The position numbers and the translations under genes were made by a program. From the NCBI RefSeq assembly GCF_006345805.1, contig NC_042997.1:127286001-127350000 (forward strand): a stretch of 64,000 nucleotides of DNA, in the 5' to 3' direction. How positions within the stretch are numbered: position 1 is the first letter of the stretch; each line of letters opens with the position of its first letter. Source of the DNA: Octopus sinensis (taxonomy: Eukaryota). This document shows, one piece after another, positions 2,347 to 61,340 of the stretch. Under the pieces are notes generated by a model. That model searched no databases. It was not told the DNA's origin and saw only the letters and a list, made by a program, of their open reading frames with translations.

Positions 2347-2398
<52 letters not shown>

Positions 2399-2874
2399 TG
2401 TTGTGTCTGGGGAGAATCATTTTCTTTTTGTGGCTTATAATTTAACACACTGGTAAAATTTCCACCTATTTTCTCGAAATTTTGCATCTTGCAACCTTTT
2501 CAATAGACTTGACTCTGTCTGTTATTTACACTACGCTCCTTTTTGTTTGTTTTTGCACATGTGTGTGTTTTGCAACTATGTACCATGTTTGTATGTATGG
2601 ATGTGCATCTCCATATGTGTGGACACATGTCTCCATATGTGTCCTTGTGTGAAGTAAAGTGTGTGTGTATATATGGTCATGTGTTTCAGTCTCCATTTGC
2701 TTATGTATGCTTGTCTGTTCATATGTACCTATCTGTTTGTATGTTGATCTGTTTATTTTCATATCCATATGCTTGCATACATGTGCATATACACACACAT
2801 ACATACATCTATCTACATAACAGCCAACTAACTATTCTATTCTACACATGTAAACTGTGGGTATGGGGTACATG

Positions 2875-3399: not shown

Positions 3400-4052
3400 T
3401 GTTTGAGTGTTGGGTCTTTTGGGTGTTTGGATAATATGCGGATGTCAAGTTGACCCAGGTTGCCTCCATGTTGGTAGAGTATGGAGGACTGTTTTGTGTT
3501 GTCATATTGTCTCAGATGTTCATTTAGTCATTTCGCAGTGGTCCTAGATGTCTTCCCTATGTATGTCATGTTCATGTCTTTACAAACAACTTCTATGCAC
3601 CTTACACTGTAAACTACATTTCTAGTTCTACAGTTAATGTCAGGGCTAATCCTACATACCCTGCAGTTATTATTGGTGCATATGGTATTCTCAAAGGGGT
3701 ATGTCCTACATAGTTGTGATCTGACAGAGTTCCCTGGCTTTTCAACAATCTTAATGTTGAGTTTGGTCTCCTTCAGAGCTTTTCTAAATCTATGGGCTAG
3801 TTCTCCATGGGCTGTGGCCTCTACAAACATCACTCCTTGATATTTGTCGGTTTTATACCACGTGTTTGCCCTGTTTGCTTTGTCACAAGTTTTTTGTATC
3901 CTATTCCATTCTTTGTTTCTAAACAACTTGTATCATTACGTATAATGTTATCTAATTTCTTTTTAGCACTCCTGTATACTCGAACCCTATTTTTCTGATC
4001 AAATCCAGAGAACTGCATGTGGTGCATGAAGTTCTGTGTAAGTTTTTTGTTA
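3400..4052 (-). pseudogene. Penelope-like element fragment: RT C-terminus, Cys-rich linker and GIY-YIG endonuclease
   Basis: Frameshifted ORFs read ...VMFVEAT..GELA...KIVEKPG.S..SQL...PF....C....CRVC......NCRTRNVVYSVRC....C......YIGKTSRT, the VVY/YIG layout of Penelope-like endonucleases. Confidence 0.8.
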
Positions 4053-4631: not shown

Positions 4632-4925
4632 CTAGAGAGAGGCATGTTAGGCGTGGTTTGTTTGATGTGCCATGTTAACTTAAAAGATGTCGTTGAGGAC
4701 AAGAGAGATGTGACAGTGGCTAAGTATTAAAGATATGTCTAAAAGCAACATCTAAAACACTTGAAAGATACAATTATGTGGTATGGACATGAAAACATGA
4801 GGTTGTAATGAGTTAATGCTGGAAGGTAACTGTGACAGAGGTAGATCAGGAAAGACATGATGGCATTACACCAGAGAGCATTGGGCCTCAAAGATGAGAT
4901 GATGCAGAATTATAAACCCATTTAA

Positions 4926-5088
4926 CGATTCCGGGGATCGAGTGGGCATTTACATCTCATTGTAAATATTCTTTCATATGTCATTTTTTACTTTTATTTT
5001 TTCCTTTTCTTGTCATTCGCTTTCTTATTTTAAGTTCCCCGATTGTATTGTCCCCTCTATGTTCGCCCCTTGTGGGTAGTAATAAAAT
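4926..5088 (+). mobile_element. 5'-truncated copy (3' UTR only) of the ORF1-only element
   Basis: Matches the last ~163 nt of each unit (CGATTCCGGGGATCGAG...GTAGTAATAAAAT); abrupt 5' edge against an RTE remnant. Confidence 0.85.
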
Positions 5089-6861
5089 CACGTGTCGGAA
5101 ATCTATGCGTGTTGTTATCTGTGACTAGACGGTGAAATTTTTTTCTGTGTAAATTGATTAATATCGCGCGAGGCGTTTGCCTCCACGTGTGGAAACGTTC
5201 CGAAGAAGGTGAATTGACCCTCTAGTCATGGCGACTTACGCGGGGGTCACGGGAAAAAAATAATGATTCGTCGATATCATAAGGATGTTTTCTTTGAGAA
5301 GGATAAACTCAAAGAATATGAAAAGCTCTTCAAAAGGGAGGTGATAGCGTGAAGCTAATCCCCCCCGAAAGCAAAAGAGGACAAAGAAAGCAAGACAGTG
5401 ACATACAGAACCCAAGACAAAAATACGAAGAAACTGGCAAGAGTGGAGATAGCTGAAATTGAAAAATGTCTGGGAGACATAATGGGGAAAACAACCTACG
5501 TGAGTAGAGGCAAGAAATTTGGTACGGTGGAGGTGAGATGTGCAACGGAAGAAATTGCAGCCTCACTGGCTACCACTGTACTAAGAGCCGAAAAATTTAC
5601 AATGTGGCCCTCATACAAGGGAAGAAGAGGGGTCCGGGTTAAAATCCCGAATATACCCCCAGAAGTGAAAACAGAATGGCTGGCAACAGCTATTCTAGGA
5701 GCAGCAGAAGAGGAAGTGGAGGTGGAATCCTTTAAGGAGTCCAACGCGGTAAACTGGAGAGGATATGGGGTAGAACTGTGTTTGATGGCCACAAAAGAGG
5801 ACATTGAAAGGTTCCCCTACAGAATTGAAATTGAAGATGAAAAAACCCTCAGTGTAATTGTAGAGGGAAGAAAACCAAACTGTTACTTGTGCGGGACAAG
5901 GGGGCACATTAAAAAAGAGTGCCCGTTATACGAATTCGTAGCGGAGTGCGAGCAGGAACTTGAAGAAAAGAAGAATACGGTAAATGAAAAAGAAAACATA
6001 GAAAAGGAAACAAAACAACAAGAGAAAGGAAATAATAAGTCAATGAAGGAAAAAGAAATAAAAGAAAAGAAAAGAAAGAACCAAAACAGAGTCAGGAAAA
6101 AAAAAGGAAAAAGAAACAACAGGAAAAAACAAGAGAGAGATCAGAATCAAACGAAAAGAAAAGACGGCACACAAAAAGAAAAAGAAAAGGACATAAAACA
6201 CGAGAGAAAGAGAGAACAGACAAAGAACCAAAAAGACAAGAGAAGGAAGGAGAAAGAAAAGAAGGCAAAAAGAGAGAAAGAGAGAAACAAAGAGAGGAGA
6301 ACAAGAAGAAATAAGCCCGAAAAGAAAAATGAAGGAAAACGTAGGACGGAAACAAGATTACTGCTTCTACAAGTTAGTAACCTTCCATTTCTGCCCTGAA
6401 ATGAAAGACTTGACATGTAATACGGAGGGACATATATGGGTCAACAGGATGACCGATCAGTGGCAGGAGACTGCTGTAATCCCCGAAGAAAGAGTCGCTG
6501 AGTTCCTCAGAGCTGCCGGAGAGAGTGTAATATTTTACACGAGTGTTCGAGTGAGAGAGCGGCTGCCTGAGGGCTCAGTGATGGACTTTAGAGAATTGAA
6601 AGCTATTATGGAATATGTATAGAATTGTGAGAAGAGAGAGAAGAAAGAAGAGAAAAAAGAAAATATTGTGAAATATATGTGACGAAAATGTAACCTCTCG
6701 ATTCCGGGGATCGAGTGGGCATTTACATCTCATTGTAAATATTCTTTCATATGTCATTTTTTACTTTTATTTTTTCCTTTTCTTGTCATTCGCTTTCTTA
6801 TTTTAAGTTCCCCGATTGTATTGTCCCCTCTATGTTCGCCCCTTGTGGGTAGTAATAAAAT
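5089..6861 (+). mobile_element. ORF1-only non-LTR-type element, unit 1 (~1.77 kb)
   Basis: ~140-nt 5' UTR, ATG 5228, TAG 6620-6622, T-rich 3' UTR ending AATAAAAT; near-identical to units 2 and 3. Confidence 0.85.
5228..6622 (+). CDS. Gag/ORF1-like zinc-knuckle protein (~460 aa consensus; this copy is frameshifted)
   Basis: Consensus of the four units: MATYAGVT...VSRGKKFGTVEVRC...RVKIPNIPPEV...IVEGRKPNCYLCGTRGHIKKEC (CX2CX4HX4C), a K/E-rich stretch, then a ~90-aa C-terminal region ending ...MDFRELKAIMEYV*. Resembles L1/Tx1-clade ORF1. Confidence 0.75.
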
Positions 6862-8641
6862 AACGTGTCGGAAATCTATGCGTGTTGTTATCTGTGACTA
6901 GACGGTGAAATTTTTTTCTGTGTAAATTGATTAATATCGCGCGAGGCGTTTGCCTCCACGTGTGGAAACGTTCCGAAGAAGGTGAATTGACCCTCTAGTC
7001 ATGGCGACTTACGCGGGGGTCACGGGGAAAAATAATGATTCGTCAATAATTATAAAGGATGTTTTCTTTGAGAAGGATAAACTCAAAGAATATGAAAAGC
7101 TCTTCAAAAGGGAGGGTGATAGCGTGAAGCTAATCCCCCCTGCGAAAGCAAAAGAGGACAAAGAAAGCAAGACAGTGACATACAGAACCCAAGACAAAAA
7201 TACGAAGAAACTGGCAAGAGTGGAGATAGCCGAAATTGAAAAATGTCTGGGAGACATAATGGGGAAAACAACCTACGTGAGTAGAGGCAAGAAATTTGGT
7301 ACGGTGGAGGTGAGGTGCAACGGAAGAAATTGCGGCCTCACTGGCTACCACTGTACTAAGAGCCGAAAAATTTACAATGTGGCCCTCATACAAGGGAAGA
7401 AGAGGGGTCCGGGTTAAAATCCCGAATATACCCCCAGAAGTGAAAACAGAATGGCTGGCAACAGCTATTCTAGGAGCAGCAGAAGAGGAAGTGGAGGTGG
7501 AATCCTTTAAGGAGTCCAACGCGGTAAACTGGAGAGGATATGGGGTAGAACTGTGTTTGATGGCCACAAAAGAGGACATTGAAAGGTTCCCCTACAGAAT
7601 TGAAATTGAAGATGAAAAAACCCTCAGTGTAATTGTAGAGGGAAGAAAACCAAACTGTTACTTGTGCGGGACAAGGGGGCACATTAAAAAAGAGTGCCCG
7701 TTATACGAATTCGTAGCGGAGTGCGAGCAGGAACTTGAAGAAAAGAAGAATACGGTAAATGAAAAAGAAAACATAGAAAAGGAACAAAACAACAAGAGAA
7801 AGGAAATAATAAGTCAATGAAGGAAAAAGAAATAAAAGAAAAGAAAGAAATAGAACCAAAACAGAGTCAGGAAAAAAAAAGGAAAAAGAAACAACAGGAA
7901 AAAACAAGAGAGAGATCAGAATCAAACGAAAAGAAAAGACGGCACACAAAAAGAAAAAGAAAAGGAACATAAAACACGAGAGAAAGAGAGAACAGACAAA
8001 GAACCAAAAAGACAAGAGAAGGAAGGAGAAAGAAAAGAAGGCAAAAAGAGAGAAAGAGAGAAACAAGAGAGGAGAACAAGGAAGAAATAAGCCCGAAAAG
8101 AAAAATGAAGGAAAACGTAGGACGGAAACAAGATTACTACTTAGCTTCTACAAGTTAGTAACCTTCCATTTCTGCCCTGAAATGAAAGACTTGACATGTA
8201 ATACGGAGGGACATATATGGGTCAACAGGATGACCGATCAGTGGCAGGAGACTGCTGTAATCCCCGAAGAAAGAGTCGCTGAGTTCCTCAGAGCTCCGGA
8301 GAGAGTATAATATTTTACACGAGTGTTCGAGTGAGAGAGCGGCTGCCTGAGGGCTCAGTGATGGACTTTAGAGAATTGAAAGCTATTATGGAATATGTAT
8401 AGAATTGTGAGAAGAGAGAGAAGAAAGAAGAGAAAAAAGAAAATATTGTGAAATATATGTGACGAAAATGTAACCTCTCGATTCCGGGGATCGAGTGGGC
8501 ATTTACATCTCATTGTAAATATTCTTTCATATGTCATTTTTTACTTTTATTTTTTCCTTTTCTTGTCATTCGCTTTCTTATTTTAAGTTCCCCGATTGTA
8601 TTGTCCCCTCTATGTTCGCCCCTTGTGGGTAGTAATAAAAT
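6862..8641 (+). mobile_element. ORF1-only element, unit 2 (ORF 7001-8402, frameshifted)
   Basis: Direct repeat of unit 1 with the same CCHC motif. Confidence 0.85.
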
Positions 8642-10412
8642 ACGTGGAGGAATCTATGCGGTTGTTTTATCTGTGACTAGACGTGAAATTTTCTGTGTAA
8701 ATTGATTAATATCGCGCGAGGCGTTTGCCTCCACGTGTGGAAACGTTCGAAGAAGGTGAATTGACCCTCTAGTCATGGCGACTTACGCGGGGGTCACGGG
8801 GAAAAATAATGATTCGTCGATAATTATAAAGGATGTTTTCTTGTAGAAGGATAAACTCAAAGAAATAAGAAGCTCTTCAAAAGGGGGTGATAGCGCAAGC
8901 TATCCCCCCGCGAAAGCAAAAGAGGACAAAGAAAGCAAGACAGTGACATAACAGAACCCAAGACAAAAATACGAAGAAACTGGCAAGAGTGGAGATAGCC
9001 GCAATTGAAAAATGTCTGGGAGACATAATGGGGAAACACAACCTACGTGAGTAGAGGCAAGAAATTTGGTACGGTGGAGGTGAGATGTGCAACGGAAGAA
9101 ATTGCAGCCTCACTGGCTACCACTGTACTAAGAGCCGAAAAATTTACAATGTGGCCCTCATACAAGGGAAGAAGAGGGGTCCGGGTTTAAATCCCGAATA
9201 TACCCCAGAAGTGAAAACAGAATGGCTGGCAACAGCTATTCTAGGAGCAGCAGAAGAGGAAGTGGAGGTGGAATCCTTTAAGGAGTCCAACGCGGTAAAC
9301 TGGAGAGGATATGGGGTAGAACTGTGTTTGATGGCCACAAAAGAGGACATTGAAAGGTTCCCCTACAGAATTGAAATTGAAGATGAAAAAACCCTCAGTG
9401 TAATTGTAGAGGGAAGAAAACCAAACTGTTACTTGTGCGGGACAAGGGGGCACATTAAAAAAGAGTGCCCGTTATACGAATTCGTAGCGGAGTGCAAGCA
9501 GGAACTTGAAGAAAAGAAGAATACGGTAAATGAAAAAGAAAACATAGAAAAGGAAACAAAACAACAAGAGAAAGGAAATAATAAGTCAATGAAGGAAAAA
9601 GAAATAAAAGAAAAGAAAGAAATAGAACCAAAACAGAGTCAGGAAAAAAAAAGGAAAAAGAAACAACAGGAAAAAAACAAGAGAGAGATCAGAATCAAAC
9701 GAAAAGAAAAGACGGCACACAAAAGAAAAAGAAAAGGAACATAAAACACGAGAGAAAGAGAGAACAGACAAAGAACCAAAAAGACAAGAGAAGGAAGGAG
9801 AAAGAAAAGAAGGCAAAAAGAGAGAAAGAGAGAAACAAAGAGAGGAGAACAAGGAAGAAATAAGCCCGAAAAGAAAAATGAAGGAAAACGTAGGACGGAA
9901 ACAGATTATTACTGCTTCTACAAGTTAGTAACCTTCCATTTCTGCCCTGAAATGAAAGACTTGACATGTAATACGGAGGGACATATATGGGTCAACAGGA
10001 TGACCGATCAGTGGCAGGAGACTGCTGTAATCCCCGAAGAAAGAGTCGCTGAGTTCCTCAGAGCTGCCGGAGAGAGTGTAATATTTTACACGAGTGTTCG
10101 AGTGAGAGAGCGGCTGCCTGAGGGCTCAGTGATGGACTTTAGAGAATTGAAAGCTATTATGGAATATGTATAGAATTGTGAGAAGAGAGAGAAGAAAGAA
10201 GAGAAAAAGGAAAATATTGTGAAATATATGTGACGAAAATGTAACCTCTCGATTCCGGGGATCGAGTGGGCATTTACATCTCATTGTAAATATTCTTTCA
10301 TATGTCATTTTTTACTTTTATTTTTTCCTTTTCTTGTCATTCGCTTTCTTATTTTAAGTTCCCCGATTGTATTGTCCCCTCTATGTTCGCCCCTTGTGGG
10401 TAGTAATAAAAT
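8642..10412 (+). mobile_element. ORF1-only element, unit 3 (ORF 8775-10173, many small indels at the 5' end)
   Basis: Direct repeat of unit 1. Confidence 0.85.
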
Positions 10413-12192
10413 CACATGTCTGAAATCTATGTGTGTTGTTATCTGTGACTAGACGGTGAAATTTTTTCTGTGTAAATTGATTTGATATCGCGCGAGGCGT
10501 TTGCCTCCACGTGTGGAAACCTTCCGAAGAAGGTGAATTGACCCTCTAGTCATGGCGACTTACGCGGGCGTCACCGGGAAAAATAACAATTCGTCGATAA
10601 TCATAAAGGATGTTTTCTTTGAGAAAGAGAAACTCAAAGAATATGAAAAGCTCTTCAAAAGGGAGGGTGATAGCGTGAAGCTAATCCCCCCCGCGAAAGC
10701 AAAAGAGGATAAAGAAAGCAAGGCGGTGACATACAGAACCCAAGACAAAAATACGAAGAAACTGGCAAGAGTGGAGATAGACGAAATTGAAAAATGTCTG
10801 GGAGACATAATGGGGAAAATAACCTACGTGAGTAGAGGCAAGAAATTTGGTACGGTGGAGGTGAGGTGTGCAACGGAAGAAATTGCGGCCTGACTGGCTA
10901 CCACCGTACTAAGAGCCGAAAAATTCACAATGTGGCCCTCATACAAGGGAAGAAGAGGGGTCCGGGTTAAAATCCCGAATATTCCCCCAGAAGTGAAAAC
11001 AGAATGGCTGGCAACAGCTATTCTAGGAGCAGCAGAAGAAGAAGTGGAGGTGGAATCAATTAAGGAGTCCAACGCGGTAAACTGGAGAGGATATGGGGTA
11101 GAATTGTGTTTGATGGCCACAAAAGAGGACATTGAAAGGTTCCCCTACAGAATTGAAATTGAAGATGAAAAAACCCTCAGTGTAATTGTAGAGGGAAGAA
11201 AACCAAACTGTTACTTGTGTGGGACAAGGGGGCACATTAAAAAAGAGTGCCCGTTATACGAATTCGTAGCGGAGTGCGAGCAGGAACTTGAAGAAAAGAA
11301 GAATACGGTAAATGAAAAAGAAAACATAGAAAAGGAAACAAAACAACAGAGAAAGGAAATAATAAGTCAATGAAGGAAAAAGAAATAAAAGAAAAGAAAG
11401 AAATAGAACCAAAACAGAGTCAGGAAAAAAAAAGGAAAAAGAAACAACAGGAAAAAAACAAGAGAGAGATCAGAATCAAACGAAAAGAAAAGACGGCACA
11501 ACAAAAGAAAAAGAAAAGGAACATAAAACACGAGAGAAAGAGAGAACAGACAAAGAACCAAAAAGACAAGAGAAGAAGGAGAAAGAAAAGAAGGCAAAAA
11601 GAGAGAAAGAGAGAAACAAAGAGAGGAGAACAAGGAAGAAATAAGCCCGAAAAGAAAAATGAAGGAAAACGTAGGACGGAAACAAGATTACTATTACTAC
11701 AAGTTAGTAACCTTCCATTTCTGCCTTATAATGAAAGACTTGACAAGTGAAACGGAGGGACATATATGGGTCAACAGGATGACCGACCGGTGGCAGGAGA
11801 CTGCTCTAATCCCCGAAGAAAGAGCCGCTGAGTTCCTCAGAGCTGCCGGAGAGAGTGTAATATTTTACACGAGTGTTCGAGTGAGAGAGCGGCTGCCTGA
11901 GGGCTCGGTGATAGACTTCAGAGAAGTGGAAACAATTATAGAGTATGTATAGAATTGTGAGAGGAAAAAAAAAAAAAAAGAGGAAAAAGAAAATTTTGTG
12001 AAATATATGTGGCGAAAATGTAACCTCTTGATTCCGGGGATCGAGTGGACATTTACATCTCATTGTAAATATTCTTTCATATGTCATTTTTTACTTTTAT
12101 TTTTTTCCTTTTCTTGTCATTCGCTTTCTTATTTTAAGTTCCCCGATTGTATTGTCCCATCTATGTTCGCCCCTTGTGGGTAGTAATAAAAT
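10413..12192 (+). mobile_element. ORF1-only element, unit 4 (ORF 10552-11952, in-frame TGA at 10891; most diverged unit)
   Basis: Direct repeat carrying many substitutions relative to units 1-3. Confidence 0.85.
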
Positions 12193-12500
12193 CACATGGA
12201 GGAAAGCACCTTCGAAAAGTGTCTTGGTGCGACTATGAAAGGTATCTAGTCAGAGGCGGTAAATTTGCCACAATAGAAGCAAGGTTCGAGTCAACGGAGC
12301 ATGCAAGGGAGTACTCGACTTGAACTTGCAAAGTGGAAATATTTTATTTTTACCTTTATATCTGGGATGTAGGACGTCCCAGAAAAAAATTTAAAATGCC
12401 TCCCCCCCCACCACCAGAAGTAGAGGTAGGCTGGATTGTAGCCACACTTCTATACAAGAGGGAGGACAAGATACAATTGATCGAAATTACAAGAGACGGG
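12193..12500 (+). pseudogene. Decayed fragment of a diverged relative of the same ORF1
   Basis: FEKCLGATMK / VRGGKFATIEARFESTEHA / PPEVEVGWIVATLL align in order with IEKCLGDIMGK / SRGKKFGTVEVRCATEEIA / PPEVKTEWLATAIL. Confidence 0.7.
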
Positions 12501-17477: not shown

Positions 17478-17894
17478 TATTTCTTTACTACCCACAAGGG
17501 GCTACACATAGAAACGACAAACAAGGACAGACAAACGGATTAAGTCGATTATATCAACTCCAGTGCATAACTGGTACTTATTTTATCAAGCCCAAATGGA
17601 TGAAAGGCAAAGTCAACCTTGGCAGAATTTGAACTCAGAATGTAGTGGCAGACGAAATACCTATTTCTATTTCTTTACTACCAACAAGGGGCTAAACACA
17701 GAGGGAACAAACAAGGACAGACAAACAGATTAAGTCGATTACATCGACCCCAGTGCGTAACTGGTACTTATTTAATCGACCCCAAAAGGATGAAAGGCAA
17801 AGTCGACCTCGGTGGAATTTGAACTCAGAGCGTAGCGGCAGATGAAATACTGCTAAGCATTTCATCCGGTGCGCTAACGTTTCTGCTAGCTTGC
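17478..17894 (-). mobile_element. SINE family C dimer
   Basis: Two head-to-tail units with central GCCTTTCATCCTTT.GGGGTCGAT..ATAAGTACCA and tail ...GCCCCTTGT.GGTAGTAAAGAAATA. Confidence 0.8.
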
Positions 17895-20120
17895 TGTTTC
17901 TGTTGCTCACAACTTCACCATCTTGTCCCACCTCTCTTTCTGTCCCCCTCCACTCACTCTCTCTCTCTCTATCCCTCTCTACTCACTCTCTCTTTCCTCT
18001 CTCTCTCTCTCTCTTCTCTCCAACTGAGGTAGCCTTGTATCTCCTCTCCTGCATGACACCAGTTTCTGTTCATACTCTGGCCTCTCATAACCTGGCACAA
18101 AACCACCTCCCTCAGTGCTTCTCCCCACCATTAATTGAAAAGCTTTGTCCTGCAAGTTACTTGGTCACCTCACTGTGGCTGGTGCCACATGCACATCTCT
18201 CAGTCCACTCTGCAAAATGGTTGCTGTTAAGAAGAGCATCCGACAGTAGAAACCCTGCCAAAGCAGAAAGTGCAGCTTGGTACACCCATCAAACCGTCTT
18301 GGAGCACCCCATCTTGATGCACCCATCAAATCATCCAACCCATGTCAGTGTGGAAAACGGGTGTTAAATTTCGATGATGATGATGAGGAGGATGATAGTC
18401 TACCATTTTAAATGAAAAGAACACATCGAGTCAAATATTTCTTGATAAACTATGTTTAACAGTAAGGTAAGATTATTGGACTGACCCACAGGGCTAAAAT
18501 ACAGCAATAATGTAGATTAGGTGGATTTGCCCATTGACAAATAAATATAATGGCTATAAAAACATGTAGCAGCTGCAACAGAAGATGAACCATGAACCAT
18601 TAACCATTCTGTTGACTCTGGTTCCTTGTCAACTTGGCCATCTGTTTTCTCATTTTAAGCAAAAAATATGTGTTTGTTTTTCTAAGATCTTACAGGAAAT
18701 TCACCAACCTCTTCCACAATGTACCAAAGTTTGCTATAGTTTGAATAACATTTTTTATGTTTATTGAAGAATGAACTCCAATTATTCTGAGGATCCTACA
18801 AAATCTTCGGCACAATGTAGTTTTGACACCATTCTAATAAATCTATTTTATTGAAGGAGAACAGCAAAATGAAAAACCAGAAATATCAATAGTAGTCATC
18901 TCGTGCTTGTGTAGAATATAGTTAAGTGTCCAAGCTGTTCTAAGTGCATCAGTTTGCTTTTAACTGTTAATCACTGCTGTGTTGGAAGAATGTAAACTAC
19001 AGAAAATATTTAAATATTTCTTCAACGCATAAACATTTTATAGTAAGATACAGCGACTGGGAAGTTTTCCTAAATGTTAGTCTTTCTGGTTTTCCTCCAC
19101 CAGAAATGGCCAGCCTCTCGCTTTAATGGCATACATAACTGATTTGTATTTTTGTAAATGTCTACATTAGACTATTATTAAAATTGACATTTTTTGAATA
19201 CATTAGAACCTCCCAGGAGGACAATTTCATTGTTTCCTATTCTCAATCACAATCTACACATCTCCTTTGCAATTTCTATTGCATAACTAGAAAAAATCAT
19301 GCAAGAAATTTCATTAGTAATGAGATGTTGTGAAATCCACACCGCTGAAATGTTATAATCACAATAGATTGATTTGGAGCTGTGCAAATTTTCGTCTTTT
19401 CTATTTTTTTTCTCTCTTCAGATTAAATTAATTTTTATCACAAAAGAGAAATTGAACAAATAAAATAGATTCTTTACAAAATCTTTCCTTCACTTGTTGT
19501 TGTTATTTTTTGTCTCCCACCCTTCCCTCCCCTTCTCTCTAACCGTATCTCTTTCTCTCTCTCTCACTGCATTTCCCTCTCTCTCTCTCTCCCTCACTGC
19601 ATCACTTACTCTCTCTCTCTCACTGCATCTCTTTCACTCTCCCTCTCTCCCTCTCTCCCGTCTCTCCCTCCCCCTCTCTCCATGTTTCTCAGATACAGGA
19701 AATAAATATGATGTGATAGTTATTAAAATATTGATTTTTTTTCCATCAGCACAAAACTTCTGATTTGTGAAGGTGAAAAGTAAGATTATGTGATATTCAT
19801 GCCTTTCTTTTGAAATAAATAATGAGGATGCATATTTCATTGCAACCCTGGGTCTTACAGAGACCATTGATAATCTTGTTTCTCTGAATTATATCTAATA
19901 TAACTATGCACAGTGGAGCACTTCTGCTTCAAAGATATAATTCCAAGAAGAATTGAACTTGGTATTCTTTCACAACTCTATAGTTCCATATACCCCCCTG
20001 CTCATCCTCCTTCTCATGATGATGATGATGATGATATGATGATGCTGATGATGCTGATGATGATGATGATGATGATATGATGATGCTGATGATGCTGATG
20101 ATGATGATGATGATCATCAC

Positions 20121-23895: not shown

Positions 23896-24644
23896 CACAC
23901 ACACACACCACACACACACACACACACACACTGAGTTCTTTCAGTTTCTTATTTCTTTATAGTCCACAAGGGCTAAACATAGAGGGGACAAACAAGTACA
24001 GACAAAGGGATTAAGTTGATAACTCGACCCCAGTGAGTAACTGGTATTAATTTATCGACCCTGAAAATATGAAAGGCAAAGTCAACCTTGGTGGAATTTG
24101 ATCTCAGAATGTAAAGACAGACCAAATACCACTAAGCATTTCACCCGATGTGCTAACGTTTCTGCCAGCTCGTTGCTTTTCAGTTTCTTTCAGTTTTTGT
24201 CTACCAAATCCACTCACAAAGCCTGGTCGGCTTGAGGCTATGATAGAAGGCTCTTGCCCAAAAGTGCCACACGGTGGAACTGAACTGAAATCCATGGGGT
24301 TGGGAAGCATACTTCTTACCATACACTCCCACCTGCACCTGTTATACTGAATCCTTGTGCAGTTTGATGTAGTATGATGCACATCATTATATCTCCTTTA
24401 CTAACCACCCTTCATAATTTCAGAATTCAGAGTCTAAAGGTAGTCTCTATGACCTAATGAACTTATGATGTTTGATATTGTATTTATACAGTGCAGATCA
24501 ATAACTGCAAGAAAAATCTGGCAGAGAATGATTTGAAGAAAACTGCCCTTCTAGGGAGATGAGATTGGAAGAAGGGTTTAGTGCAGTATCTGGGATAAGA
24601 AACATAATAGGTGTGGTGATGTATGGTGATAGAAGAAGAGTATA

Positions 24645-25147
24645 CTCTTTTCTACACTAGGTACAAGGCACAAAATATTTGGGGAGGGGGCCGGTCAATT
24701 AGACTGACTCCAGTATGCAACTAGTACTTAATTGATTGACTCTGAAAGGATGAAAGGCAAAGTCAACCTTGGCAGAATAATGCTTATATTCTTTTCTACT
24801 CTAGGCACAAGGCCCAAAATTTTGTGGGAGGGGCTGGGTCCAGTCAATTAGATCGACACCAGTATGCAACTGGTACTTAAATTATCAACCCCGAAAGGAT
24901 GAAAGGCAAAGTCAACCTTGGCAGAATAATGTTTATATTCTTTTCTACTCTAGGCACATGGCCCGAGATTTTTGGGGAGGTAACCAATCGATTAGATCGA
25001 CCCCAGTATGCAACTGGTACTTAATTTATTGACTCTGAAAAGATGAAAGGCAAAGCCAACTTTGGCGGAATTTGAGCTCAGAACATATAGACAGTCAAAA
25101 TACTGCTAAGCATTTCACCCGGCATGTTAACGTTTTTGTCAGCTTGC
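24645..25147 (-). mobile_element. Three tandem copies of a family C variant with a different tail
   Basis: ~149-bp units sharing the junction GGCAGAATAATG.TTATATT; tail GCCTTGTGCCTAGAGTAGAAAAG. Confidence 0.7.
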
Positions 25148-34640: not shown

Positions 34641-36479
34641 AGTCAGAAGATAAGGCAGTACCTGTGGAATAGTTAATTGTGGAATAGCAAGGGGAATGGC
34701 TATTGACCCCAATCAACACATCTTTCAGATTGGTGCCTCTCTGACAATATTTTTTAAAACTCTTTAGTTCACTTGTGCGATAAAAGTTGAATCTCTGATT
34801 TTTTTGTTAATCGCAAGGCCTTGGAAGAACTTTCTAGAGTCATTACTTTATTTGACCAACTTCCCATATTTTTGAACTTCCTGCACAATTTCCTGTGATG
34901 TGTGTATGACCATTGAAATCTGAAGAACCTAAACAAACCCTGACATCATAACTCTTTGACACTGGACGATCCCATGGAGTTTCATCTTTTTCACAACACA
35001 CCTATATCAGTTGTTCAAAGTTTCATAAATAATCACATCGTACAGAAAAACGAAATTATTGACTAATGAAATATTTCATGGAATATAAGAGAAACGAGAT
35101 AAAAATTGTTTGGTATGTGTCACAGTGCCTTTTTTATGTGCTCGCTCCCACTAAGTTTAGAGCCTGACTACACAACTGGGGAGCACCCACAGTACTTTTA
35201 CAGAGACTCTGATACTGGTGATAGGAGGGAAGGAGAGGGAAGCAAGAAAGTATCCCCAAACTGGAGACCTGGAGTGAATGTTTGAAATGGAGTAGACTCT
35301 GCTAGTGGCACCAAAAGTGCCAAATGGCAGGCAAAAACCGAAGTGATAGATTAAATTTACCATCCATTTCAGAACTACGGCAGGATTTGAACTCATAGCA
35401 CAAAGAACCAAAACAAATATCTCAAAGGCTGATACTCTTACACTTCTGTCAATCCATCTTCCTGGATAATAGTTTTGTACAGATTAATTCTCCCTTGTAT
35501 TGTTGTGGTTAGGATTTAATAAGAATTATGTTGGCAGGTTCATGGGTCTGTAGTGTTTTTATCTTGCTATTTCTTTTAGCCTTGCAAGTTTAACATGATT
35601 TTCCACCCTCTGAGCCATTCAGCTGTTGTTTTTGGATCTCTCAATCAGTTGGTAAATATACACGCCAGCACTTTATGTGTATGTACTTAATGTTTCAACC
35701 AAAAGTAGGGTGGTAAGCTGGCAGAATCATTAGCATGCTGGGCAGAATGCTTAGGAGCATTTCGTCTGCCACTACGTTCTGAGTTCAAATTCCACCGAGG
35801 TCAACTTTGCTTTTCATCCTTTCGGGGTCAGTAAGATAAGTACCAGCTGAACACTGGGGTTTGTATAATCAACTTACACCCTCCCTCAAAGTTGCTGGCC
35901 TTGTGTCAAGATTTGGAAAGGTGGCAAGCTGGTGAAATCATTAGCACACCAGACAAAATGCTTAGCAGCATTCCATTTGTCCTTATGTTCTGAGTTCAAA
36001 TTCCTCTGAGGTTGGCTTTGCCTTGCATCCTTTTGGGGATGATAAAATAAGTACCATTTGAGCCATGGGGTCGATGTAATCAACTTATCCCCTTTGCTGA
36101 AATTGCTGGCCTTGTGCCAAAATTTGAAATCGATACTTCAACCGAAAGTTTGGAACTTTAATACTTCCTGGTTATTATCTTTATTATTGGGGGTAGTTCT
36201 AAAGTTGGTGCTTCAGAATAGAAATCTTACCCCTCGTGGGGATAGAAAAAGGTTGCTTTTCTTTTCTTTTATCTTTTAGTATTCTCGCATTTCATATATT
36301 GGTAATTACAATTCTTTATATAACTTTCCATATAATACATAATATCTCTTACACTCATCATTCATTTTGGTAAATATGATATTTTTTTAGATTCCACATT
36401 AACTTTTATTTCGTTGATTCCTCATTGAAAGTTTCATATTTTTGGTATCTCTTCTAGCCCATGTGACTAGTAAATGAAA

Positions 36480-38405: not shown

Positions 38406-39002
38406 CCTATTTCTTTACTACCCACAAGGGGCTAAACACAGAGGGGACAACCGAGGACAGACAAACGGATTAAGTCGATTACATCGACCCCAGTGCTTAA
38501 CTGGCACTTAATTTATTGACCCTGAAAGGATGAAAGGCAAAGTCGACCTCAGCAGAATTTGAATTCAGAACATAACGGCAGACGAAATACCTATTTCTTT
38601 ACTACCCACAAGGGGCTAAACACAGTGGGGACAACCAAGGACAGACAAACGGATTAAGTCGATTACATCGACCCCAGTGCTTAACTGGCACTTAATTTAT
38701 TGACCCTGAAAGGATGAAAGGCAAAATCGACCTTGGCGGAATTTGAATTCAGAACGTAAAGGCAGACGAAATACCTATTTCTTTACTACCCACAAGGGGC
38801 TAAACACAGTGGGGACAACCAAGGACAGACAAACGGATTAAGTCGATTACATCGATCCCAGTGCATAACTGGTACTTAATTTATCGACCCCGAAAGGATG
38901 AAAGGCAAAGTCGACCTCGGCAGAATTTGAATTCAGAACATAACGGCAGACGAAATACCGCAAAGCATTTTGCTCAGCATGCTAACGATTCTGCCAGCTC
39001 GC
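38406..39002 (-). mobile_element. SINE family C trimer (~184-bp units plus a single head)
   Basis: Units start near 38406, 38590 and 38773; one head (reverse complement GCGAGCTGGCAGAATCGTTAGC) at the right end. A monomer lies at about 52168-52388. Confidence 0.85.
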
Positions 39003-51557: not shown

Positions 51558-52569
51558 ATGGTGATGGTGATGATGGTGATGATTATGATGGTGGTGATGG
51601 TGATGATGATGATGATGATGATAATGATGATGATGATGATGATCATGATGATGATGATGATCATGATGATGCTGATGCTGATGATGGTGGTGGTGGTGAT
51701 GATTATGATGATGAGGAAATATTGGTGTGATTTCAATGACTAACTCCCACCCTCCACCAAATTGCAAGTCTTGTTCTGAAATCAAAACAATTATTAAGGA
51801 CTATGGATTAAATGTTTGGAAGTATCCAGAGTAAAAAAGTATGACTGGAGTTAAATTGTTTCCCTCTTTCCTCCCACTGGGTCAATAAAATAAGGAGCAG
51901 TAATATATTAGGGTTGATTCAGTAGCTATACATTTCTTCTATGAAATTATGAATTTTTATCGACAAGTTTAAAAACAGTTCTCCTCCTCCACCTCCTCTT
52001 CAGCATCATCATCATAATCAAAATCATCTTTGTCATCATTGTCGTCGTTGTCGTCTCATCTTCATCATTCTCATCACGATTAGCTTCATTAACATTTCCT
52101 CATCATCATTGTCATTATCCTCTTCCTTCTCTTTGTAACTATCAGCATCAACATCACCCCTTCCTATGTCTTTACTATCCACAAGGGGCTAAACACAGAG
52201 AGGACAAACAAGGACAGACACACGGATTAAGTTAATTATATTGACCCCAGTGCGTAACTGGTACTTATTTAATCGACCCTGAAAGGATGAAAGGCAAAGT
52301 CAACCTCGGCGGAATTTGAACTCAGTACATAGCGGCAGGCGAAATACCGCAAAGCATTTCGCCCGGCGCGCTAACGTTTCTGCCAGCATCACCCCTTCCT
52401 TCATCTTCTCCTTTACCACGACCACCACGACCACCACCACTACCATCATCATCATTGTTGTCATCAAGTGGTGGTGAGAGGAGATGAGTTAATCTTGGCA
52501 ATGTTAATCACCATTCTAATTACCACTGCTCCACCATTAAATCAAGCTCTCTTTTTTTGTTTGTCTTAC

Positions 52570-52637: not shown

Positions 52638-55381
52638 CTAAATACAGTAGAGGGCAAATGATGTTGACACCTTTTCCATTTTGCTATTTCAGTCTCTACA
52701 ATAATTACAAGCTACAAAGTCAATCAACCCCTCTCAGACTATTCTCTCACCTTAATCTTTGTTAACCTCTTTAGCTAGTATGTCCCTTCCGTTCCATTTC
52801 TCTGTCTTATAATAATAATAATTCATTAAAAGCAAGTGGCATCAAGCAGTGAGATTACTAAGTTGAGACTGGATTAAAAGTTAATTAAAAGTGCCATCTT
52901 CATACTGGCATCAAGAATTCTATTAAGAAAGAGTTTGTGAAAGTTAGTGGAATACCTGCTGCTCTTTACAATTAAATAGTTCAGCATTTATTTGTATCAT
53001 TGCCAGGTTTACACTGTGTGTTGATGCAATTAAGATCATGTCAGTAGCCTTCTACTGTTATCTGCTTTCAAACACCACATTAAGACAATTTTCTGTTCAA
53101 CACCGTGTAAACTCCATTATATATGAGACAATTTCAATTTAAAAGCCCCATAGATGTATTGAAATCTTTTTCATTTATATTTTTCTTACTGATAATCTTT
53201 CTAATTTCTTTCTTTCCTTCCTTTCTTCATTCTTTCTTATTTATTAGTGTATTTATTCCAGCATTATTCTATATCAAAATAGTCCTGAAAACCTATATAT
53301 ATCCTTTCTACAATAGGCGCAAAGCTTGAAATTTTGGTAGGAGTTAGGTAGTCAAATTCATTGACACCTGTACTCAACAGGTACTTATTTTATTGTGCTC
53401 TCCCTCCCAATTGGCTGGAAGGAAAAGTTGATCTTGGTTGCTTTTACACTTAGAACATAAAGAAGGGCCATATGCTGCTAAGCATTTTGCTTGTGTTAGT
53501 GATTCTGGTGACTTGCTGCCTTCATCCAGAACATACAACAACAACAACAAGCAGCAACAACAACATCAATAATTAATTCGATTATTAGCCACAAGGGCTT
53601 ACAGAAAATTACATTAAGAGACATACAACATAAAAGACAAAAACAGAACGATACAATGGGTTTTACAACATGTAGACAATACAATAGCAATTAAAATTCA
53701 ACAATTTAAAACTCCCAATAGGGGAGGCACATTAAGGACCTCAAGAAAAAAAACCCACTGGTGCCTGAACAATAGGGCAAAGAGCCCTTCTTTTGTTTAC
53801 AGGTGCACGCTCAGAATTGGTCCTTTCACACTGGTACAACAACAACAATAATAATAACAATCCTGTCTACTAAAGGCACAAGGCCTGAAATTTGGGGAAG
53901 GGGACTTGTTGATTGTATTAACCTCAGTGTTTTACTGGTACTTAATCTATGGACTTCGAAAGGATGAAAGGCAAAGTTGACCTTGGCATAATTTGAACTC
54001 AGAACATAGTATCAGACAAAATACTGTTAAGCATTTTACCCAGCGTGCTAACAATTCTGACAACTCACTGCCTTGACAACAACAACAACAATAATAATGG
54101 TTTCAAATTTTGCCACCAGGGCAACAGAAAATGTTTAGTGATATTTCATCTGTCTTCACATTCTGTGTTCAAATTCCACTGAGGTCAACTTTGCCTTTCA
54201 TTCTTTTGGGGTCGATAAATTAAGTATCTTTTGGGGTCGATAAATTAAGTACCAGTTGCATATTGGGAGGAGGGGTGATCTTATCGACTGGCCCCCTCAC
54301 CAAAAGTTTCAGGCCTTGTACCTACAGTAGAAAAGAATAAGGGGCAGCAAGCTGGCAGAATTGTTAACATGCAGGGCGAAATGTTTAATGGTATTTTTCA
54401 TCTTTATGTTCTGTGTTCAAATTCCACCGAGGTCGACTTTGCCTTTCATCCTTTTGGAGTCGATAAATTAAGTACCAGTTGCATACTGGTTTCGATCTAA
54501 TCGACAGGCCCTCTCCCCCAAAATTTTGGGCCTTGTGCGTAGAGTAGAAAAGAATGTGCTACCCAGTCCAGGAATTGTATTCATTATTTATGATCAAAAG
54601 ACCAACTCCCTAACTATTAGGCTATATTTTTTTTACTACTCACCTTACTAAGGCAGTTAAGTGTACAAACTTTTGCAGCTGGCATTTTATGTTGTGAGAT
54701 ATTGATTGAAATATGTAGTTATATTCTTCTACTAGTTTCAGTCATTTGACTGCAGCTATGCTTGAGCACTGCTTTTAGTCAAACAAATCCACCCCAGGGT
54801 TTATTCTTTATAAGCCTAGTACTTATTCTATCAGTCTCTTTTGCCAAAGAGCTAAGTTACGGGGATGTAAACACACCAACATTGGTTGTCAACAGACACA
54901 CACAAATATATACATATGTATATCAAATTCGATGACTGGCATCCATGCTAGTGGAGCTCTAAGAGTACCATCCAGGTGTGATCATTGCCAGAGCAACAAA
55001 CTGGCTTCCGTGCTGGTGGCACGTAAAAAGCACCATTCAAGCGTGATCTTTACCTGCGTCACATTACTGGCACTTGTGCTGGTGGCACAGGAAAAAACAT
55101 TTGAGCATGGCCGTTGCCAGTACCACCTGACTGGTCCTCGAGCCGGTGGCACGTAAAAGCACCCACTACACTCTCGGAGTGGTTGGCATTAGGAAGGGCA
55201 TCCAGCTGTAGAAACTCTGCCAGATCAGATTGGAGCCTGGTGCAGCCATCTGGTTCACCAGACCTCTGTCAAATCGTCCAAGCCATGCTAGCATGGAAAG
55301 TGGACGTTAAACGATGATAATGATGATGATGATAGAATGGGCTTCTTTCAGTTTTCACCTACCAAATCCACTCACAACACT

Positions 55382-55533: not shown

Positions 55534-55565
<32 letters not shown>

Positions 55566-55583
55566 CATCATCATCATCATCCA

Positions 55584-57579: not shown

Positions 57580-57612
57580 TGTTTCTTTATTAGCAACCAC
57601 AAGGCTGCACAC

Positions 57613-57643
<31 letters not shown>

Positions 57644-60139: not shown

Positions 60140-61160
60140 AAGGGCGAGGAAGGGCGAATGGCACTGTGAGTGTCACGTTGCTCTCAAGCAACTATGCCGT
60201 CCTGGGTTGACCTTGAGCGAATTCAACACAACCAAAGCATTCTATAGGGGATTAGTGGAAGGGAGGAATGACAACGACCTCGGGGCGAACCTGGGCTTCG
60301 ACGAGGAATACCTGACCCACCTGTTCAAGACGACTTTCGGCCTGGGACCTATGGACAGTTTCCAGAAATACCTGGCCTGGCAGTGCTATTGAGAAGCGCT
60401 ACCCATTCGGGACAAACTCTACAGGCATGGCTTGAGAAACACAGGGCCAACCTGCCCGAAATGTGGTCAGAGTGACAAAACCGTTCTGCACGCACTTGTA
60501 CAGTGTCCAACCACTTCCAAACTGTGGACCTATGTCAAACAACTGCTATTGCATGTGGGATGAGTCAGCTTATCAACCGAGTTTATCATGAATATCGTTG
60601 CACCTCCTTCCTTGAAACGGGAAGGAAAAGCCATTTTCATTGTGGCTATGGTAAAAGAATGTGTCTGGTGGACATGTCTGAAAGGGTTAGAGACAAACAT
60701 TTTCCTCTCTGGTCAACCTCTCATCAATTTTTTCAAGTATCACTTGAAGAGGAAGGTGAGAGTAGAGAATGAAGTTTTGTCTAGTGAATGTTTCAAAGAC
60801 AGATGGGTGAATGCAGCAAGGATGGCATGTATGAATGACGAAGCCACCTCGGGCATAATCCTATGAATCAAAAAAAAAAGGAAGGGAAAAATGAGTCATT
60901 TACTGTAATGCATTTTTTTGCATGATATTATTGCCCGAGGTTACTGTGGTCTTTTCCGTAGGCTTTTCTTTCCACGGATAAACCTAATCTGTTCCCCCTT
61001 TTACACTATGACATTTCTGTGATACACGACCCCTATTGATCAGCCTTTTTTTTAATGATCCCTTTTGATCGAATTTCTACCCCGCCTTTTTTTTCCTTTT
61101 CTTCCTAAAACAAAAAGCTCTACTGTGTATTTTGTCCTCTGTGTTGACAATAAAGAAGCA
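60138..61160 (+). mobile_element. 5'-truncated Tx1-like LINE (ORF2 C-terminus with CCHC finger plus 3' UTR)
   Basis: Paralogous to 63225-63957; CPKCGQSDKTVLHALVQC; ends AATAAAGAAGCA then TATC repeats. Confidence 0.85.
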
Positions 61161-61204: not shown

Positions 61205-61340
61205 TTTTTTTCCCAATCCCTTTTGATCGGAATTTTACTTTTTTTCTTATTTTCCCCTTTTTTTTCATTTTCAAAAAGAAAAGCTCTATATTTGTATTTG
61301 TCGCCTCTGTGTTCAGCCCTGTGTGGCCAATAAAGAAAGT
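61205..61340 (+). mobile_element. Tx1-like LINE 3'-UTR-only insertion
   Basis: ATCCCTTTTGATCG...AAAAGCTCTA..TTGTATTTGTC..CTCTGTGTT shared with the UTR at 61054-61160. Confidence 0.75.

What the first reader, a model, noticed from the sequence alone, without database searches (positions are those of the whole stretch)
5043..5088. One 3' tail is shared by the ORF1-only element, SINE family C and the Tx1 LINE
Seen by manual alignment: ORF1-element end TTGTCCCCTCTATGTTC-GCCCCTTGTGGGTAGTAATAAAAT versus SINE C end (reverse complement of 38409-38450) TTGTCCCCTCTGTGTTTAGCCCCTTGTGGGTAGTAAAGAAAT gives 37/42. SINE C versus the Tx1 end (61298-61338) TTGTCGCCTCTGTGTTCAGCCCTGTGTGGCCAATAAAGAAA gives 34/41. 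All three can form a short GCC-stem hairpin with a UGU-containing loop before the A-rich end. Known: many SINEs share 3' tails with partner LINEs whose RT recognises that tail, whereas mammalian L1 relies on poly(A). Inference: a Tx1-clade RT with tail recognition mobilises two kinds of passenger, one non-coding and one supplying its own ORF1.
Basis: partly seen in the sequence, partly recalled or inferred. Interest (0 to 1): 0.85.

Follow-up and report, generated by a model that had tools for sequence, protein, structure and literature searches.

The report
Octopus retrotransposons share a Tx1-type tail
In an octopus genome, a jumping element that encodes only an RNA-binding protein and a short non-coding jumping element (a SINE) end in nearly the same 42 bases, which also resemble the ends of Tx1 retrotransposons, so both likely borrow the copying enzyme of a Tx1-type element, probably a sister family of the copies seen nearby, a partnership rarely reported for this group in animals.

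Summary
In detail: 37/42 (ORF1 element vs SINE C) and 34/41 (SINE C vs the Tx1 end at 61298), far above shuffles, and all 15 matches in the window are element 3' ends. The window is Octopus. The ORF1 element is a head-to-tail array of four 1.77-kb units (two RRM folds plus a CCHC knuckle, no ORF2, pN/pS about 0.3); relatives lie on six chromosome-scale scaffolds of O. vulgaris. A 4-bp hairpin with a CUUGU loop covaries across three sister SINE tails, although it is not unusually stable. The 61298 end is a 134-bp orphan, the two ORF2-linked Tx1 ends match much worse, and these Tx1 copies sit in TATC microsatellites while neither passenger does (SINE C has 12-13-bp target duplications at A[AG]G sites). 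Best reading: both passengers carry the 3' signal of an unseen sister Tx1 family. SINE/LINE tail sharing and ORF1-only elements (HAL1, HeT-A, Ag-Sponge) are known; a Tx1-type tail on an animal SINE and an ORF1-only Tx1 derivative were not found in my searches. The partner LINE and the need for the tail are untested.

The parts
5043..5088 (+). Shared 3' tail (first of five copies on the ORF1 element): pyrimidine-rich stretch, GCCC/GGGU stem (5065-5068 with 5074-5077) around a CUUGU loop (5069-5073), AATAAA at 5081-5086
4926..5088 (+). Leading 163-bp 3' fragment of the ORF1 element (a 5'-truncated unit); no target-site duplication with the far end of the array
5089..6861 (+). ORF1-only unit 1: 140-bp leader, ORF1 (ATG 5229 to stop 6622, broken by small indels here), 239-bp 3' UTR ending in the tail
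5359..5943 (+). ORF1 core: two tandem RRM-type folds and a CCHC zinc knuckle (type I ORF1p), followed by a Lys/Glu-rich linker and an ~85-aa C-terminal part
   Evidence: Pfam zf-CCHC; model pLDDT 91; Foldseek and VIA-align hits to RRM proteins; ESM Atlas CCHC and ZCCHC3-RBD clusters
6862..8641 (+). ORF1-only unit 2
8642..10412 (+). ORF1-only unit 3 (indel-rich 5' part)
10413..12192 (+). ORF1-only unit 4, the most diverged (about 4%), with one nonsense codon; last tail of the array
12193..12500 (+). Right flank: decayed internal piece of a different ORF1 of the same protein family; its first 13 bases match unit starts at 9-10 of 13
   Evidence: tblastn, 35 of 168 stored proteins hit it, best E 2e-17
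38409..39001 (-). SINE C: full copy plus two tandem 184-bp head-truncated units, each ending in the shared tail (no AATAAA)
17479..17896 (-). SINE C full copy plus one head-truncated unit; a 12-bp flanking repeat lies 16 bases from the head
23951..24177 (-). SINE C copy with a 12-bp target-site duplication
52166..52387 (-). SINE C copy with a 13-bp target-site duplication
61205..61338 (+). Short 5'-truncated Tx1 3' end, no ORF2 attached, in (TATC)n; the closest Tx1 match to the tail
60140..61159 (+). 5'-truncated Tx1 copy (ORF2 C-terminus plus 3' UTR) in (TATC)n; lacks the GCC-stem segment but can fold a different 5-bp hairpin before AATAAA
57688..58406 (-). 5'-truncated Tx1 copy (ORF2 C-terminus plus 3' UTR) in (TATC)n; tail 30/41 to SINE C, AGCC/GGCU stem
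57582..57622 (-). Further short Tx1 3' end in (TATC)n, 6-bp stem with UUGU loop before AATAAA
61572..64000 (+). 5'-truncated Tx1 ORF2 (RT and zf-RVT), preceded by (TATC)n, running off the window before its 3' end
53575..53830 (-). Unassigned element end with AGCC-CUUGU-GGCU followed by AATAA: Tx1-like stem with the passengers' loop
   Evidence: upstream part not significantly like the other 3' UTRs
24795..24823 (-). Example of sister SINE tail D (same head and core as SINE C): GGGC/GCCU stem around CUUGU
36099..36127 (+). Example of sister SINE tail E: UGGC/GCCA stem around CUUGU

Best explanation
An ORF1-only element and a tRNA-type SINE in Octopus end in the same ~42-nt sequence, which is likely the 3' signal of a Tx1-clade LINE family whose reverse transcriptase would copy both in trans, and that family is probably an unseen sister of the TATC-targeting Tx1 copies in this window rather than those copies themselves. 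Shown: shared terminal tail, no ORF2 in the ORF1 element, ORF1 under purifying selection, a dispersed family, SINE target-site duplications, a covarying CUUGU hairpin, Tx1-like RT nearby with related ends. Inferred: the ORF1 element arose from a Tx1 LINE by loss of ORF2 and is transcribed by polymerase II (it keeps AATAAA); the SINE took the tail by template switch onto a shared head and core and is transcribed by polymerase III (it lacks AATAAA); ORF2p binds the hairpin and starts target-primed reverse transcription; the element's own ORF1p coats its RNA; arrays grew by insertion next to earlier copies and by local duplication.
For: Tail identity and terminal position, 15 of 15 matches; similarity upstream of the tail is not found between the SINE and either partner (181-198 of 200 shuffles score as high). 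No ORF2 match in 4900-12300 and only 239-240 bases from stop to end in 4 of 4 units. Unit 4 vs units 1-3: pN/pS 0.27-0.30, p 1.5e-4 to 2.6e-5 (the three comparisons share unit 4). ORF1 core folds as two RRMs plus CCHC, the type that Ivancevic et al. tie to Tx1-clade elements in non-mammalian animals (PMC5203782, passages). 18 of 31 related proteins examined end in the same C-terminal residues and lie on O. vulgaris scaffolds of 225.7, 182.4, 128.6, 118.2, 73.6 and 50.8 Mb and one of 1.3 Mb, with runs of consecutive accessions at five places. LINE ORF2: best PDB match L1 ORF2p, E 3e-50; nearest Atlas cluster 'Transposon TX1 149 kDa protein family', 0.97; both were run on the 67%-identical relative P0164. 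Hairpin: 55 of 60 cells paired, 3 of 4 pairs with two-sided changes, 0 of 500 shuffles, slid controls 27-53% paired. SINE C duplications of 13 and 12 bp abut both ends at 2 of 4 loci (0 of 400 controls each). O. vulgaris holds 80 L1-Tx1 families, 13 recently active (PMC13282606), so a sister family is available.
Against: No autonomous LINE with the passengers' exact tail was seen, and no ORF2 was linked to this ORF1 family (search for longer forms found none among 457 candidates, weak evidence). The two ORF2-linked Tx1 ends match poorly. The covariation comes from about four lineages, the rows were picked by the loop motif, and the set holds no certain Tx1 end; Tx1 loops differ (CUGUGU, UGUGGU, UUGU, none). 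Sister SINE tails D and E carry the same loop but no other Tx1-like sequence, so the motif may not be Tx1-specific. Type I ORF1p also occurs in other clades. The array has no target-site duplication. The three named ends fold no better than shuffles.
Confidence: 0.55

Rival explanations
1. The TATC-targeting Tx1 family seen in the window is itself the driver of both passengers.
For: 34/41 identity of SINE C to the 61298 end, 0 of 200 shuffles; all four Tx1 ends can fold a hairpin just before AATAAA.
Against: These Tx1 copies have TATC runs at their junctions (5-10 TATC in 45 bases upstream of the three measured; such runs fill 16 of 1422 window 45-mers), while 0 of 4 SINE C loci and the ORF1 array have any. 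In crocodilian SINEU/Tx1-Mar the passenger shares the driver's target (PMC4494074, section read). The passengers are closer to each other (37/42) than to any Tx1 end (28-34/41).
Confidence: 0.12
2. The tail is shared by descent or capture only: the SINE picked up the 3' end of the ORF1 element or of a Tx1 RNA by template switch, and the RT is relaxed, as in mammalian L1; the sequence is kept for 3'-end formation or by chance.
For: One ORF2-linked Tx1 copy lacks the GCC-stem segment yet ends at AATAAA in TATC; folding energies are ordinary; Ohshima notes that L1-clade LINEs rarely give tails to SINEs (PMC3747384).
Against: The SINE keeps the hairpin and lacks AATAAA, so a polyadenylation role does not explain its retention; stems covary around a fixed loop across three SINE tails; the similarity stops about 42-47 bases from the end.
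Confidence: 0.15
3. The true partner is a LINE of another clade (CR1/L2-like, R4/Dong or other), and the Tx1 likeness comes from tail exchange or a motif common to several octopus LINEs.
For: Tails D and E share the loop but not the Tx1-like flanks; type I ORF1p is not confined to Tx1; mollusc SINEs swap tails among at least four LINE clades (PMC11481361, passages).
Against: The only LINE ends in the window that match the tail are Tx1; the ORF1 element and Tx1 both put AATAAA straight after the hairpin and share TTGTA(T)TTGTC upstream.
Confidence: 0.12
4. The ORF1 array is not a retrotransposing unit: it is a tandem gene family grown by DNA recombination, or an LTR-like array in which the 163-bp piece is a shared terminal repeat.
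For: The array begins and ends with the same 163-bp piece, has no target-site duplication, and units 1-3 are nearly identical apart from indels; the sequence just upstream of the piece in full units starts TGTAAC.
Against: The leading piece lacks that TGTAAC start and fits a 5' truncation; the protein is a non-LTR type I ORF1p, not a capsid Gag; relatives are spread over six chromosome-scale scaffolds; the end is shared with a SINE that has target-site duplications.
Confidence: 0.06

Closest known systems
Stringent SINE/LINE pairs with a shared 3' tail (eel UnaSINE/UnaL2; bivalve SINEs with CR1, L2, Nimb; 58 pairs in Ohshima 2013, PMC3747384, Table 1 read)
   Same: Short LINE-like 3' end on a tRNA-type SINE, 35-61 bp at 72-95% in bivalves (PMC11481361, passages); small stem-loop with compensatory changes; sister SINEs with swapped tails.
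   Different: The tail is Tx1-like. Ohshima's table has three L1-clade pairs, in maize/sorghum and Chlamydomonas, and no Tx1 or animal L1-clade pair. The partner here is not identified.
ORF1-only non-autonomous LINEs: HAL1 (L1), HeT-A (Jockey), Ag-Sponge (CR1) (Kojima 2018, PMC5786205, Discussion read)
   Same: One ORF1-type protein, no ORF2, LINE-type 3' end, purifying selection on ORF1; head-to-tail arrays as in HeT-A (PMC5537684, passages).
   Different: Likely Tx1-derived, a clade not on that list; arrays lie amid ordinary repeats with flanks on both sides; the 3' end is shared with a SINE; no parent with the same ORF1 found.
Crocodilian SINEU mobilised by Tx1-Mar (Kojima 2015, PMC4494074, passages and one section read)
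   Same: A SINE assigned to a Tx1-clade driver.
   Different: There the link rests on shared targets and snRNA-derived heads, and no Repbase LINE matched the SINEU-1 3' half; here the link rests on a shared tail and the targets differ from the Tx1 copies at hand.
Microsatellite-targeting Tx1 families Kibi (TC)n, Koshi (TTC)n, crocodilian (TTCC)n/(TTTC)n families (PMC4494074, passages)
   Same: The window's Tx1 copies are nested in one microsatellite type at both junctions.
   Different: The repeat here is (TATC)n; no full-length copy or RT tree was available.
Octopus tRNA-derived SINEs OK, OR1, OR2 (Ohshima and Okada 1994; paper not seen, named in PMC4758252, PMC4824008, PMC5804259)
   Same: Abundant octopus SINEs with a tRNA-type head; SINE C and its sisters share head and core and differ in tail.
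   Different: Identity with OR1/OR2 could not be tested: no sequence was available in the papers or supplements searched.

Membership tests
Stringent SINE/LINE tail pair | Shared 3'-terminal sequence beyond chance | tested here: met
Stringent SINE/LINE tail pair | Tail lies at element termini, not internally | tested here: met
   15 of 15 matches in the window are 3' ends
Stringent SINE/LINE tail pair | Conserved stem-loop with compensatory changes | tested here: inconclusive
   Covaries across SINE tails C, D, E and the ORF1 element; Tx1 ends have other loops and were not in that alignment; energies ordinary
Stringent SINE/LINE tail pair | Intact autonomous partner carrying the same tail | not testable with these tools
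   No genome held; collection scans empty; no read evidence
Stringent SINE/LINE tail pair (with the window's TATC Tx1 as partner) | Passenger shares the partner's target preference | tested here: not met
   Tx1 copies in TATC; 0 of 4 SINE C loci and not the ORF1 array
Stringent SINE/LINE tail pair | Tail required for mobilisation | not testable with these tools
   Needs a retrotransposition assay
ORF1-only non-autonomous LINE (HAL1/HeT-A/Ag-Sponge type) | Encodes a non-LTR ORF1-type protein | tested here: met
   Two RRM folds plus CCHC
ORF1-only non-autonomous LINE (HAL1/HeT-A/Ag-Sponge type) | No ORF2 between ORF1 and the 3' end | tested here: met
   239-240 bases from stop to end in 4 of 4 units; no ORF2 match in the array
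ORF1-only non-autonomous LINE (HAL1/HeT-A/Ag-Sponge type) | Dispersed multicopy family with ORF1 under selection | tested here: met
   Proteins on six chromosome-scale scaffolds (their 3' ends were not seen); pN/pS about 0.3
ORF1-only non-autonomous LINE (HAL1/HeT-A/Ag-Sponge type) | Retrotransposition hallmarks (5' truncation, target-site duplication) | tested here: inconclusive
   Leading 5'-truncated piece present, no duplication at the one locus seen
ORF1-only non-autonomous LINE (HAL1/HeT-A/Ag-Sponge type) | Autonomous parent with homologous ORF1 and 3' end | tested here: inconclusive
   No longer fused form among 457 candidates; none of 24 proteins scanned (23 homologues and P0001) carried an RT or endonuclease family; no genomic context for homologues
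Tx1 clade (window LINE copies) | L1-group RT with C-terminal zinc-binding region, nearest to Tx1 | tested here: met
   Pfam RVT_1 and zf-RVT; for relative P0164: L1 ORF2p best in PDB, Atlas TX1 149 kDa cluster 0.97
Tx1 clade (window LINE copies) | Placement in an RT tree with reference Tx1 families | not tested
   No reference Tx1 sequences were fetched
Tx1 clade (window LINE copies) | Target-sequence preference | tested here: met
   (TATC)n at both junctions of the three copies measured
tRNA-derived SINE (SINE C) | tRNA-type head with A and B boxes | tested here: inconclusive
   Box-like motifs seen by eye against a recalled consensus; no ARAGORN or Rfam tRNA match
tRNA-derived SINE (SINE C) | Short, non-coding, dispersed, with target-site duplications | tested here: met
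   ~230 bp, 4 loci, 82-89% identity between loci; 12-13-bp duplications at 2 of 4 loci
Octopus OR1/OR2 CORE-SINEs | Sequence identity to the published consensus and CORE domain | not testable with these tools
   Not found in the supplements searched

The most novel reading that the evidence does not exclude
Octopus holds a Tx1-clade LINE lineage with stringent 3' hairpin recognition, the first such animal member of the L1 group in the literature searched, which drives a three-tier system: autonomous LINEs, a HeT-A-like ORF1-only element that targets its own 5' end or related ORF1 genes and so builds internal head-to-tail arrays on many chromosomes, and several of the most abundant octopus SINE families, whose tails C, D and E are compensatory variants of one CUUGU hairpin tuned to different sister RTs.
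Probability: 0.25. Interest if true: 0.72.

Novelty: new variant of a known kind. Interest (0 to 1): 0.5.

Why it matters
The L1 group is the textbook exception to tail recognition: a 2013 survey found only 3 SINEs with L1-clade tails among over 800 such LINEs, all in green plants or algae, and left open whether stringent or relaxed recognition is ancestral (PMC3747384, passages, section 1.4 and Table 1 read). A Tx1-type tail on an animal SINE, with natural compensatory variants of a 4-bp hairpin, would add an animal case and give a small, directly testable signal. An ORF1-only Tx1 derivative would add a fourth clade to HAL1, HeT-A and Ag-Sponge. SINEs make up 11.6% of the O. vulgaris genome and most recently active families are unclassified (893 of 900; PMC13282606), so naming a driver is useful. 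The mechanism itself is familiar, and Repbase, Dfam or the authors' Zenodo library, none searchable here, may already hold these families.

Tried and rejected
No whole genome was held, so the genome-wide tail search could not be run. Tail pattern in metagenome and viral contigs: 0 matches each. Tx1 ORF2 alignment in the same collections: 66 and 18 pattern matches, none confirmed; the ORF1 alignment had no stretch conserved enough. Twenty of 24 listed public runs hold the ORF1 unit or part of it; no RNA holder listed; no reads were laid, so termini, copy number and expression are untested. Thermodynamic stability as evidence for the hairpin: rejected (z -1.0 to 0.84 for seven ends; the eighth stretch, z -2.9, was cut short of the tail and is not used). 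Homology of 3' UTRs upstream of the tail between the ORF1 element and Tx1: only T-rich matches (2 of 200 and 81 of 200). A first pN/pS count lost the frame after 41 codons and was discarded; one search replaces it. In the duplication test the Tx1 copy at 60140 was given a 3' end about 30 bases short, so only its upstream count is used. The 89-aa O. vulgaris protein fused to ORF1 in three gene models is not in the window and not significantly like the ORF1 C-terminus; 7 such short proteins were dropped from the scaffold count. No L1 ORF1p appeared among the fold matches shown; this excludes nothing. LTR or domesticated-gene readings: kept as a low rival. Not in print, as far as searched: searches found no paper on an octopus SINE with a Tx1 tail or an ORF1-only Tx1 element; Bao and Jurka 2010 was not held; Ohshima and Okada 1994 and Kojima and Fujiwara 2004 were not seen. 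Earlier findings by place, by sequence (2 calls) and by two word sets: nothing.

Full report
1. Observation. Scanning both strands with each tail at up to 11 edits gave 15 places: five ends of the ORF1 element, seven SINE C ends at four loci and three Tx1 ends. All are 3' termini. Thirty locally shuffled windows never came closer than 13 edits. Against 200 dinucleotide shuffles the local scores were reached 0, 0 and 1 times. Upstream of the tail the SINE shows no similarity to the others, and the ORF1 element and Tx1 share only T-rich runs.

2. Host. ORF1 relatives at 96-100% identity are annotated Octopus vulgaris proteins; more distant ones come from O. bimaculoides (52%), O. sinensis and Argonauta. 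No genome was held for the window.

3. The ORF1 element. It is a head-to-tail array: a 163-bp 3' fragment (4926-5088) and four units of 1771-1780 bp up to 12192. Each unit has a short leader, one ORF and 239-240 bases from stop to end; three ORF2 relatives find no match in the array. The core folds with pLDDT 91 into two RRM-type domains and a CCHC knuckle; the Atlas lists CCHC and ZCCHC3-RBD clusters. This is a type I ORF1p, described as consistent with Tx1-clade elements in non-mammalian animals but also present in other clades (PMC5203782, passages). All four units are broken here by small indels (9-16 gap-free blocks per pair) and unit 4 has a nonsense codon, whereas O. vulgaris relatives read through (P0001); some indels may be assembly errors (inference). 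Unit 4 differs from units 1-3 mostly at silent sites: pN/pS 0.27-0.30, p at most 1.5e-4. Of 31 related proteins examined, 18 end in the same C-terminal residues; these lie on scaffolds of 225.7, 182.4, 128.6, 118.2, 73.6, 50.8 and 1.3 Mb, with consecutive accession numbers at five places, which I read as further arrays. Their DNA ends were not seen. The array has no target-site duplication. Its right flank is a decayed piece of another ORF1 of the same family (best E 2e-17), and the flank's first 13 bases match unit starts at 9-10 positions, a level met at 11-59 of 63,987 window positions, the unit starts themselves included. That hints at insertion next to its own kind, from one junction only.

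4. SINE C. About 230 bp, with box-like motifs in the head (recalled consensus; no tRNA hit), 82-89% identity between loci, and 13- and 12-bp duplications abutting both ends at two of four loci (0 of 400 controls each); a third has a 12-bp repeat 16 bases off and the fourth none significant. All four 3' flanks begin A[AG]G. Sister SINEs share head and core but end in other tails, D and E. SINE C lacks the AATAAA that the ORF1 element and the Tx1 ends carry straight after the hairpin.

5. The LINE. RT and zf-RVT domains; for a 67%-identical relative the best PDB match is L1 ORF2p and the nearest Atlas cluster is the TX1 149-kDa family. No RT tree was built. All copies are 5'-truncated. The 61298 end is a 134-bp orphan assigned through UTR similarity to two ORF2-bearing copies. 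Those two match the passengers' tail poorly (30/41 and 28/41 for one; the other lacks the GCC-stem segment). The three copies measured have TATC runs at their junctions, a repeat that fills 16 of 1422 window 45-mers; neither passenger touches one.

6. The hairpin. Energies are ordinary and the ORF1 and SINE C ends have competing folds. The support is comparative: in 15 tails (one ORF1 element, four C, six D, three E, one unassigned end) a 4-bp stem round CUUGU is paired in 55 of 60 cells, three of four pairs change on both sides, 0 of 500 shuffles reach this, and slid controls give 27-53%; RNAalifold predicts the same stem. Limits: rows were chosen by the loop motif; of the 21 core matches, 13 were used, the rest being tandem duplicates or lacking a clear loop; they stand for about four lineages; Tx1 ends were not included because their loops differ. 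In shuffled windows 6% of such loops have a stem of 4 or more. All four Tx1 ends can fold some hairpin directly before AATAAA, which short sequences do easily.

7. Mechanism. Best reading (0.55): the tail is the 3' signal of a Tx1-clade family; its ORF2p would bind the hairpin and copy both passengers in trans. The ORF1 element is likely a derivative that lost ORF2, is made by polymerase II and supplies its own ORF1p; the SINE likely gained the tail by template switch. Because target choice follows the endonuclease (PMC4494074, passages and one section), the driver is probably not the TATC-targeting family but a sister; O. vulgaris has 80 L1-Tx1 families, 13 recently active (PMC13282606, parts 1-2 of 3 and supplement search). 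Rivals: relaxed recognition with a captured end (0.15), the window's Tx1 itself (0.12), a partner from another clade (0.12), a non-retrotransposing array (0.06).

8. What is known. Shared tails are standard (58 pairs; PMC3747384, abstract, passages, section 1.4, Table 1), but only three involve L1-clade LINEs, none animal or Tx1. ORF1-only elements are listed for L1, Jockey and CR1 (PMC5786205, passages, Discussion, supplement search; also PMC5753468 and PMC5537684, passages). SINEU is tied to Tx1 by target, not by tail. Mollusc SINE papers name CR1, L2, Nimb and other partners; the main texts of PMC11481361 and PMC4824008 have no occurrence of Tx1, and PMC4758252 mentions it once, for crocodilians (passages). 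PMC3531059, PMC8967140, PMC4640811 and PMC5804259 were read in passages. Nine searches found no report of this octopus case. The original octopus SINE paper, the HAL1 paper, Repbase, Dfam, the Zenodo library and one supplement file of PMC4824008 were not seen and may bear on novelty. Earlier AI notes from other genomes describe similar tail sharing as ordinary; they were not checked.

9. Verdict. A real shared terminus on two non-autonomous elements, Tx1-like in kind, with the driver unidentified: a new variant of known kinds, interest 0.5.

Noticed in passing
window 12193-12500 (+): Decayed internal piece of a different ORF1 of the same family directly after the array; its upstream half is not at the array's left side. 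Possible preferred target.
   Followed up: partly
window 57582-58406 (-), 60043-61571 and 61572-64000 (+): Five Tx1 pieces nested in (TATC)n runs; looks like a Kibi/Koshi-type microsatellite-targeting family with a TATC target.
   Followed up: partly
window 17478-17850 and 38405-38959 (-): At two separate loci SINE C forms tandem units truncated at the same point of the head; either a tandem master copy or self-insertion at a fixed site.
   Followed up: no
window 24641-25071, 33124-33322, 53866-54071 (-), 54128-54555, 35709-36127, 28164-28308 (+): Sister SINEs with the same head and core but tails D and E; their partner LINEs are unknown.
   Followed up: partly
window 53575-53830 (-): Unassigned 3' UTR-like stretch ending in AGCC-CUUGU-GGCU and AATAA, then TTA/TTG repeats; may be the end of another Tx1/L1 family.
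   Followed up: partly
O. vulgaris proteins P0169-P0179: A repeated 89-aa ORF (identical on 9 contigs) is joined by gene models to downstream ORF1 copies at three loci, so the ORF1 element may often sit just behind another repeated element. Not present in the window.
   Followed up: partly
window 55815-55933 (-): Single full-length 5S rRNA match (71 bits) amid repeats; gene, pseudogene or 5S-headed element.
   Followed up: no
window 3528-3932 (-): Open frame with a cysteine and YIG pattern that recalls the GIY-YIG end of a Penelope-like element (recalled; no Pfam support).
   Followed up: no
window 2393-2674 (+) and 12700-13278 (-): An inverted pair of a repeat (up to 96% over 116 bp) lies on either side of the ORF1 array; may be two copies of a common repeat.
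   Followed up: partly
window 454, 828, 15013, 22245, 25953, 26285, 39993, 41615, 43150: A frequent repeat ending (AAGCCTTGTGAGTGGATTTGG type, RTE-like by recall) holds the same CTTGTG letters but does not form the 4-bp stem.
   Followed up: no
window 55380-55710 and 56274-56560 (+): A block of about 300 bases appears twice, about 900 bases apart, on either side of the 5S match; local duplication or assembly artefact (seen by eye).
   Followed up: no
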